Below, piece after piece: positions 1-9,098 of a DNA stretch of 64,000 nt. Numbering within the stretch: position 1 is the stretch's first letter; each line of letters opens with the position of its first letter. This DNA comes from Trypanosoma brucei (Eukaryota). Under the pieces are notes generated by a model. It searched no databases. It saw only the letters and a program-made list of their open reading frames with translations, and had not been told where the DNA came from. The translations under genes were made by a program, and so were the position numbers. The stretch covers positions 448,001 through 512,000 of the forward strand of contig CP000068.1 in assembly GCA_000002445.1 (NCBI GenBank), given 5' to 3'.

Positions 1-411
1 TGGGTTTCACATTGCCATATACCCAGTTTGTTAGTGATTGTGGGTTTTATTAAATATTGTTACTGACGCCATTGTTTCATGAGCCGTGTCAGGTCCCTGC
101 AGGTCTCACTAAAATTGCATACGAAATATGCCCATTTACCTCACTATTCCCTTCACGGAATATTTTCTTATTACACCATAAATAGGGGGAAATGCATTCA
201 TTACTGAATGGCCAGACCACACCTCCACGTCTTTAAACTATTTAGTCAGAAAATTGCACATCTTACAAACACTGTTTCATATGAGGGGAGGAGTGTGCTA
301 CACATGCGCCTTTACTTCACGCCAGCTTGGGCTGTAGATATGCACATACAACCCATTTTCACATCTCCCGTAATATTTATTACAGAAAAAATAGTTTATT
401 ATTTTTATTTT

Positions 412-444
412 AAGGGGAAGGGGGACGGAGGGAGGGAGAAAAAT
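412..444 (-). promoter_or_regulatory. Polypyrimidine tract on the coding (minus) strand about 120 nt downstream of the ISG65 stop. Candidate coupled polyadenylation/trans-splicing signal.
   Basis: Plus-strand purine run aaggggaagggggacggagggagggagaaaaa, which is pyrimidine-rich on the minus strand. It is conserved in all three units. Its function is inferred from the general kinetoplastid mRNA processing mechanism. Confidence 0.3.
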
Positions 445-563
445 ATCATATATAATGGAAGGGAAACCTCTCCCGCAACAGGTGAGAAATTTTTAAATTG
501 TAACCTCTCCAGAGGTTAGCCCTTCCTAAACTAAGCAAAATAAGCAAGAGATGATAATATCAT

Positions 564-6432: not shown

Positions 6433-7737
6433 TCATTCCTTCCTGTAACATGGAGAGGTTGCCCCACCCTTTTTGTCAGGTGAAGAAACTGCCTCACCTT
6501 TCTCATCAATTACATCTTCAGCATTACCTCTTCTTCGTCTCACAAACACAAGCACCACGGCTGTAATAATCGCGAGGATAGCGACAGGTATGAGAACGGC
6601 CATAAGTATTACCTTGCTTTCCTTGATCTTACTGCTCAGTGCTGATCTATCACTAGTCTCCAGGAGGTCACCGAAGTCCGCATCAGCTCCAACGACCTCT
6701 GGTTCGGTTCCACTTGTTGTTCCTGTTCCTGTTCCTGTTGATATTGTTGTTGATGTTCCTCCTGTTGTTTCTGTTGCCCCACTCTCTCCAGTTGAAGTGC
6801 CAATCCCTCGCTGTGTGGTTTCGGGAGCGGCACCTCCAGGGTTAGTGAATTTTGCACCCTTTCTGCTTGCTTCCTTGGCTTCGACCAAAACTTCGCTGAG
6901 TGGCTTGCCTGCACTCAGCCCACTATGGACAGCGTACGCTGCATTGTAAAAGCCAGATACATCATCATGAGTCTTTTTACCTTGTTCGTGTGACTCTTCT
7001 AGTTCTTCCATTTTTTTCACAGCTGAGTCGTAGTCGCTTTTCCATTTCTCGTAGTCAGCACTTATTTTTTTCGGTTTCTTCTTCTCCCAATCCTCTAAGG
7101 CTTGTTTCATCGTCCCTGCGGATACATGTAAGTAAAAGAGAGCCGTATAGCCCGTTGCTTCGCAATCAATGGTATTCCTTCCCGTCCCTGAATAATGGGT
7201 TTTGAACGTAATACCTTCACAGCTAGTGCTCTGTGCATTTTCTCCCCTCTTCCCGCAGTACCACTCTAAAACTAGATGAAGTCCACTGGAATTTTGACCC
7301 TCATCATCAAGTCCCCATCCTCGCGCCCTCTTTGCTGCCTCGGTCACAGCCTGGCAGTGTTTTTTTGCTTCATCGCCCCATTTTTTAGCTTCTGGCAGCT
7401 TCTCCTTTAATTTATCCTTTGCCTTTTCGTATATGTCCTTCACTTTTTTAGTATCAGCATCCGAAAGCTTCGAATAGCCATCGTTACTGTGTGCAGGGTC
7501 TTGTAGCGTCTGTAACCAACTGTCCAAGCTGTCCAACCAGAGCTTCAATCCATGTGCAAAGCCTTCAGTATCCCGTCCAATCTTATCTGCTTTTTTATCT
7601 CCGACAGTTTTAGCAAGATCCGTCAGCTTACATAGCGCCAACGCACCATCTCTGTTCAACTTTGCATTCGAGTTCGCTACCACCACTCGTAGCAGTAAAC
7701 CTGCAAAGGTAACCGCAACCAAGGAATACCTTATCAT
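6433..7737 (-). CDS. ISG65: Invariant surface glycoprotein ISG65, copy 3 (434 aa)
   Basis: Paralogue of the other two copies. The 3' half is conserved. The central ectodomain carries blocks shared alternately with copy 1 (SCEGITFKTHYSGTGRNTIDCEATG) and copy 2 (FYNAAYA.HSGL). ATG confirmed at 7735-7737. Confidence 0.8.
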   Translation of the reverse strand: MIRYSLVAVTFAGLLLRVVVANSNAKLNRDGALALCKLTDLAKTVGDKKADKIGRDTEGFAHGLKLWLDSLDSWLQTLQDPAHSNDGYSKLSDADTKKVKDIYEKAKDKLKEKLPEAKKWGDEAKKHCQAVTEAAKRARGWGLDDEGQNSSGLHLVLEWYCGKRGENAQSTSCEGITFKTHYSGTGRNTIDCEATGYTALFYLHVSAGTMKQALEDWEKKKPKKISADYEKWKSDYDSAVKKMEELEESHEQGKKTHDDVSGFYNAAYAVHSGLSAGKPLSEVLVEAKEASRKGAKFTNPGGAAPETTQRGIGTSTGESGATETTGGTSTTISTGTGTGTTSGTEPEVVGADADFGDLLETSDRSALSSKIKESKVILMAVLIPVAILAIITAVVLVFVRRRRGNAEDVIDEKGEAVSSPDKKGGATSPCYRKE

Positions 7738-8189
7738 ATTTCCCTTGTATCAAACTTCGCTTTTTTAGTTTATATATATTTTCGCAAGCCAGTTCACTTT
7801 CCCATATAAATGCAATTATGCACACAAAGAAAAACAGGCGATATTCATAGAATCATCGGCAAACATTATTGTAACTTTAGCAATACAACCGCAGTTATCA
7901 TCTTTACTCCCACTTCATAATCATATTATCTTACAAAAGCAATCACATGATTCCAACAGTAATAACTTTCCACTCTCAGATATCCTATTGATATCCTTGT
8001 TTTTTAGTTTTGCTGAAGGATAAAATAAATATTCTGCCACACCAACTTATAGTTGCTTATGGTTTCTCTTATTTCCAATTCCATGGGAGGTGAGTACACA
8101 TATGCATATATCATGTATGAAAAAAGTATTTCCTTTTGATATGATGATTACTGGGTATGAACAAACAAATAGTAACATTCATAAATTAG

Positions 8190-9098
8190 CTACCTAACAA
8201 CTTGTTCATTATGAGTTGAGTGGGAGGTGTCATTGTCACCGCTACGTTTTGAATAGTATTCTGTTTCACTGATAACTTCCACCCTGTAGTTGAATAATTT
8301 CAGCCTCTCCTGTGTAACCACACTATCAGAAATCACAATACTCTTCAGCACCCTACAATATCTCAAAAATCTCAAATCCTCCAGTTTTTCACAACACTTA
8401 ACATTCAGCTTTTCCAACCTCGTGTCTTCATATCTGTGTATTCCCGTTATCTCTCGCAGGTTTCGACACCCGGATAAATTCAATTCCCGCAATTCCTTCA
8501 CATGCTTTAGTCCTCTTACCTTCTGTAAGCCGATACATTCACGAATATCAATAACCTCCATCTTTACACATCCACCCACGTATACATCTTCCAACGCTTT
8601 ACACTTTTCAATGGACAGTTTGAGAAGATTATCTGCTTCACGCACATCAACATTACGCAAGAGCTCACACTCATCAATTCGAATTTCCCTTATACTCTCA
8701 TGATATCTGAACATACTAAAACTTTTAATACTGCCACAATTACTCACAAGAAAGCTCTTCAAGGCTTTACATTGCCCCAAGCCCTTTAACCTGCCTATAC
8801 CCTGACAGTGCTTGAGTTTTACACTTTCTAACGCTTTGCAGTGCTTCAGAGGTTCTAATTCAGAAACTGTGCGACAGTCTGTAACCGTTATTTTCTGTAA
8901 ACCATATAACTGTTCCACTCCTTTAAAGGTTTTGAACTCATCACATTGTTTTATATCCAGGCTTTTGGTGGCGGTGAATTCACGGGAAAGTATCACCAAG
9001 TTTTTTAAACCCCTAAATTTCGCAATCTTTAGAGTTTCTTGGAAATAACTATACGGAACTTCCGTTTCTTCTCTCGCCCTCTTCGCCACAATGTTCAT
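8190..9098 (-). CDS. Leucine-rich repeat protein (LRRP-like, 302 aa), the intact parental copy of the two fragments
   Basis: ATG confirmed (cat at 9096-9098). Repeated LxxLxLxxCxxLxxI/V motifs run throughout (KLKHCQGIGRLKGLGQCKALKSFLVSNCGSIKSF...LNLSGCRNLREITGI...). Confidence 0.65.
   Translation of the reverse strand: MNIVAKRAREETEVPYSYFQETLKIAKFRGLKNLVILSREFTATKSLDIKQCDEFKTFKGVEQLYGLQKITVTDCRTVSELEPLKHCKALESVKLKHCQGIGRLKGLGQCKALKSFLVSNCGSIKSFSMFRYHESIREIRIDECELLRNVDVREADNLLKLSIEKCKALEDVYVGGCVKMEVIDIRECIGLQKVRGLKHVKELRELNLSGCRNLREITGIHRYEDTRLEKLNVKCCEKLEDLRFLRYCRVLKSIVISDSVVTQERLKLFNYRVEVISETEYYSKRSGDNDTSHSTHNEQVVR

What the first reader, a model, noticed from the sequence alone, without database searches (positions are those of the whole stretch)
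1..9098. Array units join inside the LRR gene, leaving GTG-headed LRR fragments, and the window opens exactly on a junction
Each 2.93-kb unit ends with the C-terminal 210 codons of the LRR gene and then switches abruptly (gacagtgc|gtgggtttcacattgcc) into the ISG65 3' flank. In the intact gene the same point reads gacagtgc|ttgagttttacactttc, and the two continuations are themselves similar. That pattern suggests unequal crossing-over between LRR repeats or flanking homology. The two fragments (2307-2939, 5246-5878) have no ATG, because the apparent start is a GTG created by the junction. They are therefore pseudogene remnants riding inside the array unless they are expressed as a 3'-UTR or antisense element. 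Position 1-16 of the window is the same junction tail, so at least one more unit (ISG65 plus LRR fragment) should lie immediately upstream of the window.
Basis: seen in the sequence. Interest (0 to 1): 0.5.

Follow-up and report, generated by a model that had tools for sequence, protein, structure and literature searches.

The report
ISG65 array with truncated LRR copies
This is the already annotated three-copy surface-glycoprotein (ISG65/ISG64) array on Trypanosoma brucei chromosome 5, in which each repeat carries a truncated copy of the neighbouring leucine-rich-repeat gene; it is an ordinary product of unequal recombination, not a new kind of element.

Summary
Window 1-9098 contains three head-to-tail units of 2930-2944 bp on the minus strand. 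Each unit is an ISG65 gene plus the last 210 codons of an LRR gene, and an intact 302-aa LRR gene heads the array. The junction strings are exactly as quoted.

The window is T. b. brucei TREU927 chromosome 5 (v4) from position 448,001, which is 7 x 64,000 + 1. Opening on a junction is therefore a tiling coincidence.

The fragments are annotated genes, Tb927.5.1400 and Tb927.5.1420. Each is 174 aa from an internal ATG. The intact gene is Tb927.5.1440.

Comparison with T. b. gambiense and T. b. equiperdum changes the interpretation in three ways:
- The true breakpoint lies at least 13 nt beyond the quoted one, and the GTG is the diverged Val93 codon of the LRR gene.
- In those two genomes the last ISG65 is followed by a 349-nt truncated LRR copy and then unique sequence. 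No further ISG65 unit follows.
- Copy number varies from 1 to at least 3, and the LRR copies are mosaics of each other.

Together these point to non-allelic recombination between the intact gene and a terminal partial copy.

Whether the fragments are expressed remains unresolved. A published procyclic RNA-seq study lists them among ORFs without a transcript of their own.

The finding is ordinary and of low interest.

The parts
1..11 (-). First 11 nt of the terminal (fourth) LRR-derived segment (TGTGAAACCCA), cut off by the window edge
   Evidence: Window 1-16 equals 2930-2945. The 13-mer TGTGAAAC(C/T)CACG is homologous to the intact gene in DAL972 and equiperdum. In those genomes the terminal copy continues for 349 nt.
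12..563 (-). 3' flank / 3'UTR region of ISG65 copy 1 (terminal unit). Its last ~300 nt are only 79-93% identical to the internal units.
564..1868 (-). ISG65/ISG64 copy 1, 434 aa (by gene order Tb927.5.1390), the last gene of the minus-strand transcription unit
   Evidence: Pfam PF11727 E 5.3e-51. Kolev Table S14. The gene ID is inferred from the order of the verified neighbours.
1869..2306 (-). Native LRR-to-ISG65 intergenic spacer, duplicated with each unit. It presumably carries the ISG65 trans-splice signals.
   Evidence: 95-99% identical between units. The function is inferred.
2307..2940 (-). Truncated LRR copy 1 (residues 93-302 of the intact gene). The annotated CDS Tb927.5.1400 is 2307-2831 (174 aa from the internal ATG).
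   Evidence: P0012 contained at offset 36; v4 coordinates 450307-450831
2941..3493 (-). 3' flank of ISG65 copy 2. It contains pyrimidine-rich runs and AG dinucleotides (3081-3080, 3077-3076) that fit the 5' end of the annotated Tb927.5.1400 5'UTR, and four upstream ORFs (3073-3038, 3009-2884, 3001-2978, 2947-2936).
3494..4801 (-). ISG65/ISG64 copy 2, 435 aa (by gene order Tb927.5.1410)
   Evidence: Pfam PF11727 E 1.3e-50
4802..5245 (-). LRR-to-ISG65 intergenic spacer, unit 2
5246..5879 (-). Truncated LRR copy 2 (residues 93-302). The annotated CDS Tb927.5.1420 is 5246-5770.
   Evidence: P0008 contained at offset 36; v4 coordinates 453246-453770
5880..6432 (-). 3' flank of ISG65 copy 3
6433..7737 (-). 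ISG65/ISG64 copy 3, 434 aa (by gene order Tb927.5.1430)
   Evidence: Pfam PF11727 E 1.9e-47. 100% identical to the TREU927 protein P0013.
7738..8189 (-). LRR-to-ISG65 intergenic spacer, unit 3 (the original)
8190..9098 (-). Intact 302-aa LRR gene Tb927.5.1440. The repeated part starts at about 8824 (codon 93).
   Evidence: Identical to P0011. Pfam LRR_EndoS 1.8e-17 and LRR_4 4.2e-09.
9108..9111 (-). Mapped spliced-leader acceptor of Tb927.5.1440 (AG at 9111-9110, mRNA 5' end at 9109/9108)
   Evidence: Kolev Table S12, positions 457108/457109. Sequence.

Best explanation
Window 1-9098 is the chromosome-5 ISG65/ISG64 tandem array of T. b. brucei TREU927.

Layout in the direction of transcription (minus strand): intact LRR gene (Tb927.5.1440), ISG65, LRR fragment, ISG65, LRR fragment, ISG65, then, just beyond the window edge, a terminal truncated LRR copy.

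The repeat unit is residues 93-302 of the LRR gene, its native spacer, ISG65, and 553 nt of ISG65 3' flank.

How the array changes size: it expands and contracts by non-allelic homologous recombination. Exchange occurs between the intact LRR gene and a partial LRR copy downstream of ISG65, and between whole units. Gene conversion keeps the LRR pieces, the spacers and the ISG65 C-terminal half plus 3'UTR nearly identical. The ISG65 N-terminal domain stays divergent.

What the fragments are: 5'-truncated passengers of the unit. Because the unit includes the LRR 3' end and spacer, every ISG65 copy keeps its native upstream RNA-processing region.

Whether they are functional: probably not, or at most weakly. 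They lack the native ATG and 92 codons. The only usable ATG is internal, giving 174 aa, and it sits behind four upstream ORFs.

Shown: structure, identity, junction, synteny, copy-number differences, mosaicism. Inferred: the recombination mechanism, the order of events, and the lack of function.
For: Identity of the locus:
- Exact protein identity to TREU927 Tb927.5.1440.1420 and .1400.
- With window position 1 = chr5 v4 448,001, four published spliced-leader sites and 5'UTR lengths match: Tb927.5.1440 (10-11 nt).1450 (58).1460 (37).1470 (78).

Structure: three units at 96% mean identity, all with the same junction.

Synteny:
- DAL972 chr5 is colinear with window 15785-4 over 15.9 kb. After the third ISG65 it has a 349-nt LRR copy with the same left junction. 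A second breakpoint (...CTGAATTTA|AGATTCG...) then leads into sequence with no match in the window.
- T. b. equiperdum has the same two LRR anchors around a single ISG65.
- DAL972 also has a gap-bounded contig with four more units.

Recombination signatures:
- Internal fragments carry either the terminal-type 5' haplotype (TGGGATATAAG), the intact-type (CAGGGTATAGG), or a recombinant of the two (TGGGATATAGG).
- Identity along the unit is 97-100% in the LRR and ISG65 C-part/3'UTR, and 71-90% in the ISG65 N-domain.

Expression:
- Kolev et al. 2010 Table S2 lists Tb927.5.1400 and .1420 among annotated ORFs without a transcript of their own in procyclic forms.
- Tandem arrays under concerted evolution are common in T. 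brucei (PMC1855330).
Against: - The terminal LRR copy of TREU927 itself lies outside the window. It is inferred from two other subspecies and from published TREU927 gene coordinates; its sequence was not read.
- The single unit in T. b. equiperdum could be an assembly collapse.
- The origin of the first partial LRR copy, which has two breakpoints, is not explained.
- Against 'non-functional':
  - All 8 internal fragments in two subspecies keep the open frame.
  - Differences from the intact gene are mostly synonymous: 8 syn to 5 nonsyn and 6 to 4, pN/pS about 0.16.
  - TriTrypDB v5 gives the fragments a 5'UTR.
Confidence: 0.8

Rival explanations
1. The 174-aa ORFs (Tb927.5.1400/.1420) are real, expressed, N-terminally truncated LRR paralogues that were co-amplified with ISG65. 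They would be trans-spliced at an acceptor in the ISG65 3' flank near window 3075 and 6014.
For: - The ORF is intact in all 8 internal copies of TREU927 and DAL972.
- pN/pS is about 0.16 against the intact gene.
- An annotated 5'UTR is implied by the uORF table of Jensen et al. 2014, and a pyrimidine run plus AG lies at the right place.
- The intact parent gene is listed as robustly stage-regulated together with the ISG genes.
Against: - Both are listed as producing no transcript of their own in procyclic RNA-seq.
- Four upstream ORFs precede the ATG.
- Gene conversion from the selected intact gene can explain both ORF retention and the synonymous bias.
- The mosaic haplotypes show that such conversion is active.
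- No main text among the papers searched names either gene.
Confidence: 0.17
2. A single illegitimate (microhomology) exchange joined LRR codon 93 to the ISG65 3' flank, and only unit-to-unit unequal crossing-over followed. No pre-existing LRR homology lay downstream.
For: Similarity beyond the homologous 13-mer is weak (8/14, then 5/16; read). Some illegitimate event must have made the first junction.
Against: This model predicts a whole number of units ending in ISG65 flank. DAL972 and equiperdum instead end in a 349-nt LRR copy with its own second breakpoint, and equiperdum shows this copy with only one ISG65. It may still describe how the very first junction arose.
Confidence: 0.1
3. The repeat is an assembly artefact, either a falsely duplicated or a falsely collapsed repeat.
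For: Repeats are hard to assemble. DAL972 has an unplaced, gap-bounded array contig.
Against: The three units differ substantially in the ISG65 N-domain (71-90% identity). An independent assembly (DAL972) shows the same three-unit order.
Confidence: 0.02

Closest known systems
Annotated TREU927 genes Tb927.5.1390-Tb927.5.1440 (ISG64/65 array with 'hypothetical / LRRP' genes in between)
   Same: Identical sequence. The fragments contain Tb927.5.1400 and Tb927.5.1420, and the intact gene is Tb927.5.1440.
   Different: Nothing in the sequence differs. The annotation starts the fragments at the internal ATG and does not describe them as truncated copies of Tb927.5.1440.
Tandem gene arrays of T. 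brucei under concerted evolution (Jackson 2007, PMC1855330), for example the chromosome-2 65-kDa ISG array
   Same: Head-to-tail units in one polycistronic unit, homogenised by gene conversion and unequal crossing-over, with atypical copies at the array ends.
   Different: Here the unit carries a truncated copy of a second, unrelated gene. In the other two genomes the array is bracketed by an intact and a partial copy of that gene.
Copy-number change mediated by non-allelic homologous recombination between flanking low-copy repeats (general mechanism; from my own knowledge)
   Same: Direct repeats flank a gene. Copy number varies (1, 3, 3+4). Repeat copies are chimeric or mosaic.
   Different: The anchoring homology is only about 350-630 nt of a coding sequence. 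No recombination event was observed directly.
Alternating two-gene arrays such as the alpha/beta-tubulin array of T. brucei (listed in PMC1855330 Table)
   Same: Two different coding sequences alternate within one repeat unit.
   Different: In the tubulin array both genes are complete and functional. Here one partner is 5'-truncated.

Membership tests
ISG65/ISG75 invariant surface glycoprotein family | Match to Pfam PF11727 (ISG65-75) above the gathering score | tested here: met
   162-174 bits against a cutoff of 25.1 for all three ORFs
ISG65/ISG75 invariant surface glycoprotein family | Type I topology: N-terminal signal sequence, single C-terminal transmembrane helix, short cytoplasmic tail | tested here: inconclusive
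   Read by eye from the translations: a hydrophobic N-terminus (LVAVTFAGLLL), then ILMAVLIPVAILAIITAVVLVFV followed by RRRRG... No predictor was run.
Leucine-rich repeat proteins | Match to Pfam LRR models above the gathering score | tested here: met
   Intact gene: LRR_EndoS 64 bits (cutoff 27.9), LRR_4 36.8 (cutoff 27). Fragment: LRR_EndoS 45.6, LRR_4 28.5.
Tandem array formed and maintained by unequal crossing-over / NAHR | Head-to-tail units in the same orientation, with the same novel junction in every internal unit | tested here: met
Tandem array formed and maintained by unequal crossing-over / NAHR | Homologous anchors at both ends of the array | tested here: met
   Met in DAL972 and equiperdum, which have an intact LRR gene and a 349-nt terminal copy. 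In TREU927 only the first 11 nt of the terminal copy are inside the window.
Tandem array formed and maintained by unequal crossing-over / NAHR | Copy-number differences between related genomes | tested here: met
   1 ISG65 in equiperdum, 3 in TREU927, 3 plus a 4-unit unplaced contig in DAL972. Assembly collapse cannot be excluded.
Tandem array formed and maintained by unequal crossing-over / NAHR | Mosaic or chimeric variant patterns between copies | tested here: met
   Haplotypes A, B and an A/B recombinant at the 5' end, and mixed sharing of variants further along
Pseudogene (non-functional truncated copy) | Loss of the native start codon and 5' coding region | tested here: met
   Residues 1-92 are absent. 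There is a stop 16 codons upstream of the GTG and no in-frame ATG between them.
Pseudogene (non-functional truncated copy) | Frame disruptions or neutral substitution pattern | tested here: not met
   No stops or frameshifts in 8 internal copies. pN/pS about 0.16. Gene conversion from the intact gene could produce the same pattern.
Pseudogene (non-functional truncated copy) | No mRNA or protein of its own | tested here: inconclusive
   Listed as having no transcript of its own in procyclic forms (Kolev Table S2). But a 5'UTR is annotated in TriTrypDB v5 (Jensen 2014 uORF table). No protein data were found.

The most novel reading that the evidence does not exclude
The 174-aa truncated LRR protein is a real product, made in the bloodstream stage, that is co-amplified and co-regulated with the complement-binding ISG65. 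In that case the array would be a two-gene functional cassette and the fragment would not be a passenger.
Probability: 0.12. Interest if true: 0.35.

Novelty: already known. Interest (0 to 1): 0.13.

Why it matters
It matters little beyond annotation.
- It shows that Tb927.5.1400 and Tb927.5.1420 are 5'-truncated copies of Tb927.5.1440, not independent 'hypothetical' genes.
- It shows that the LRR homology is the likely handle for ISG65 copy-number change between T. brucei subspecies.
- That is useful for anyone interpreting multi-mapping RNA-seq, RNAi or knockout designs at this locus, or ISG65 gene dosage.
- It also illustrates that a window edge falling on a repeat junction carries no information.

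Tried and rejected
- Exact-protein contig look-ups for the window's ISG65 and LRR proteins and for P0012 found nothing. TREU927 is evidently not in that index, so the sequence upstream of the window could not be read directly.
- The ISG65 homologue search returned only chromosome-5-type proteins. The chromosome-2 ISG65 array could therefore not be used to define the ancestral 3' flank.
- Text search for Tb927.5.1400/.1420/.1440 found no paper that names them in its main text.
- Siegel 2010 has no supplements held as text. The Vasquez 2014 supplements do not mention the genes.
- The column order of the Jensen 2014 uORF read counts could not be recovered, so those counts were not interpreted.
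- TRF cannot see a 2.9-kb period.
- Rfam gave no hits anywhere in the window. There are no tRNAs in the DAL972 tail.
- Rejected: microhomology as the sole meaning of the 'similar continuations'. Cross-subspecies comparison shows real LRR homology there.
- Rejected: out-of-register exchange between LRR motifs. The only hint was a GGCAATGT 8-mer shared with the next repeat, which needs a 1-nt indel and was judged to be chance.
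Full report
**1. What is in the sequence**

Direct-repeat analysis of window 1-14000 finds three copies of every segment, with start-to-start spacings of 2929-2944 bp. TRF misses the repeat because its longest period is 500. A three-way alignment of the units, read on the minus strand, has 96% mean column identity over 2976 columns.

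The large ORFs are all on the minus strand:
- 564-1868, 3494-4801 and 6433-7737 (434, 435 and 434 aa). Each matches Pfam ISG65-75 with E between 5e-51 and 2e-47.
- 8190-9098 (302 aa). It matches LRR models: LRR_EndoS 1.8e-17 and LRR_4 4.2e-09.
- 2307-2939 and 5246-5878. These are 210-codon open frames, 97-100% identical to the 3' two-thirds of the 302-aa gene.

The last base shared with the intact gene is window 2928, 5867 and 8811. Window 1-16 repeats 2930-2945.

**2. Where the window comes from**

The 302-aa protein is identical to Tb927.5.1440 of T. b. brucei TREU927. The two fragments contain Tb927.5.1420 and Tb927.5.1400, each 174 aa, starting at residue 37 of the open frame. ISG65 copy 3 is 100% identical to a TREU927 protein.

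Kolev et al. 2010 (PMC2936537), Table S2, places Tb927.5.1400 at 450307-450831 and Tb927.5.1420 at 453246-453770 in assembly v4. Window position 1 is therefore chr5:448,001, which is 7 x 64,000 + 1.

Four mapped spliced-leader sites confirm this offset. The 5'UTR lengths in Kolev's table match the window ORF starts for Tb927.5.1440 (10-11 nt).1450 (58).1460 (37) and .1470 (78). An AG sits at 9111-9110, immediately upstream of the mapped site for Tb927.5.1440.

That the window opens on a junction is therefore a coincidence of tiling. It says nothing about the locus.

**3. Related loci and what lies beyond the window**

The 174-aa cluster led to three loci.

*L003, T. b. gambiense DAL972 chr5.*
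- It is colinear with window 15785-4 over 15.9 kb at 93.7% identity.
- Its gene order is: adenylate cyclase, LRR, ISG65, fragment, ISG65, fragment, ISG65.
- A fourth LRR-derived piece of 349 nt follows. It has the same left junction.
- It breaks off at ...GAACTGAATTTA|AGATTCGTTGG..., where the intact gene continues ...TTA|TCCGGGTGTCG.
- The next ~2.9 kb has no match anywhere in the window. It is followed by a 285-aa gene on the opposite strand.

*L002, T. b. equiperdum.* It has the same intact LRR gene and the same terminal 349-nt piece, with only one ISG65 between them.

*L001, DAL972.* It holds four more ISG65 + fragment units on a contig bounded by runs of N. It is an unplaced piece.

*TREU927 itself.* Kolev Table S14 ends the minus-strand transcription unit at Tb927.5.1390. 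The plus-strand unit ends at Tb927.5.1380.

Tb927.5.1380 has its spliced-leader site at 443,988 and a 333-nt 5'UTR. If it encodes the 285-aa orthologue, which is an inference, it ends near 445.2 kb. That leaves about 2.8 kb to the window start. The corresponding distances are 3.2 kb in DAL972 and 3.1 kb in equiperdum (positions).

This spacing fits the terminal LRR piece plus the unique tail. It does not fit that tail plus a further 2.93-kb unit. The prediction of 'one more ISG65 + LRR unit' is not supported. 'More LRR sequence follows' probably is.

**4. The junction re-examined**

In DAL972 and equiperdum the intact gene reads ...AGT GT(A/T) AAA CTC ACG CAC TGT..., and the fragments read ...AAT GTG AAA CTC ACG CAC TGT....

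In TREU927 the intact gene has changed ACG to AAG, and the fragments have changed CTC to CCC. These two substitutions produce the apparent abrupt switch at 2928|2929.

The GTG is the counterpart of the Val93 codon (GTA). It was not created by the junction.

Beyond the 13-mer, similarity falls to 8/14 and then 5/16 (read). The real breakpoint is therefore at about 2940|2941 and 5879|5880, possibly with a little microhomology.

This also explains why 'the two continuations are themselves similar' (11/17).

**5. Evidence for recombination between copies**

Just inside the junction there are two haplotypes:
- CAGGGTATAGG, found in the intact genes.
- TGGGATATAAG, found in the terminal copies.

The internal fragments carry one, the other, or the recombinant TGGGATATAGG. 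Further variable sites are shared in mixed patterns among the 13 copies.

An internal fragment with the terminal-type 5' end and a complete 3' end is what an exchange between the terminal partial copy and the intact gene would produce.

Identity along the unit:
- LRR piece: 97-100%.
- Spacer: 95-99%.
- ISG65 N-terminal domain: 71-90%.
- ISG65 C-terminal part and 3'UTR: 97-100%.
- Last ~300 nt of the terminal unit, compared with the internal units: only 79-93%.

That is concerted evolution, with the N-domain and the array edge escaping it. Tandem arrays with these dynamics are common in T. brucei (PMC1855330).

How the first partial copy arose, with its two breakpoints, cannot be decided here.

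**6. Are the fragments genes?**

*Against:*
- There is no in-frame ATG upstream of the GTG, and a stop lies 16 codons before it.
- The first ATG is 36 codons in (window 2831 and 5770). It gives the annotated 174-aa products, which lack the N-terminal 128 residues of the parent.

*For:*
- Jensen et al. 2014 (PMC4210626) list four uORFs in the annotated 5'UTR of each fragment. These map to window 3073-3038, 3009-2884, 3001-2978 and 2947-2936 (v5 minus window = 505,095).
- The 93-nt uORF starting at 3130 is not listed. The TriTrypDB v5 5'UTR therefore starts between 3074 and 3129. A pyrimidine run and AG dinucleotides (3081-3080, 3077-3076) lie there.
- All eight internal fragments in two subspecies keep the frame open.
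- Differences from the intact gene are mostly synonymous: 8:5 and 6:4, pN/pS about 0.16.

Gene conversion from the selected intact gene can explain the last two points. Expression and function remain open.

The intact gene has a mapped spliced-leader site. Nilsson et al. list it as robustly stage-regulated, alongside the ISG genes.

**7. Verdict**

The structure is real, but it is ordinary and already in the reference annotation.

The following were corrected: the exact breakpoint, the origin of the GTG, the 'no ATG' argument, and the prediction of another upstream unit.

No non-coding RNA family matches anywhere in the window.

Noticed in passing
window 564-1868, 3494-4801, 6433-7737: The three ISG65 copies are sharply mosaic. 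The N-terminal domain (residues 23-270) has pS 0.34-0.43 and pN 0.15-0.17. The C-terminal part has pS 0.03-0.055 and pN 0.003-0.011. The ligand-facing domain stays diverse while the rest is homogenised.
   Followed up: partly
window 1-290: The 3' flank of the terminal unit is only 79-93% identical to the two internal flanks, which are 99-100% identical to each other. A dense cluster of changes lies at about window 27-50. This looks like an array-edge copy that escapes homogenisation.
   Followed up: partly
window 9278-10577 (minus strand): Kolev et al. Table S7 lists a novel 1299-nt transcript, Tb5.NT.38 (v4 458577-457278), just upstream of the LRR gene. It overlaps the start of a 158-aa ORF (10494-10970) that has no Pfam match.
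   Followed up: no
L003 6601-7590, compared with window 9099-9179: DAL972 annotates the intact LRR gene as 329 aa from an upstream ATG. In TREU927 the spliced-leader site mapped 10-11 nt before the 302-aa ATG would exclude such an extension. The extra 27 codons run through the pyrimidine tract. The DAL972 start is probably over-extended.
   Followed up: partly
L001 2301-2400 and 13657-13756: The second DAL972 ISG65 + LRR-fragment array, at 1.33-1.35 Mb of the chr5 record, is bounded by 100-N gaps. It is an unplaced contig, which may hold extra copies or the other haplotype of the same locus.
   Followed up: partly
window 11384-19808: Upstream neighbours on the same strand: a GRESAG4-type receptor adenylate cyclase (11384-15133), a lysine-decarboxylase-like/LOG-family protein (16502-17482), and an FAD/NAD-binding oxidoreductase, Pfam FAD_binding_6 + NAD_binding_1 (18924-19808). 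Their starts match the published 5'UTR lengths of Tb927.5.1450.1460 and .1470.
   Followed up: yes
window 31297-31404 and 17667-17694: A long (CA)54 microsatellite and a (TG)14 microsatellite. DAL972 has a long (TG/CA)n run in the tail beyond the array, at L003 about 18470-18690.
   Followed up: no
window about 50400-57200: Large ORFs switch from the minus to the plus strand here. This matches the divergent strand-switch between Tb927.5.1580 and Tb927.5.1590 in Kolev Table S14.
   Followed up: no
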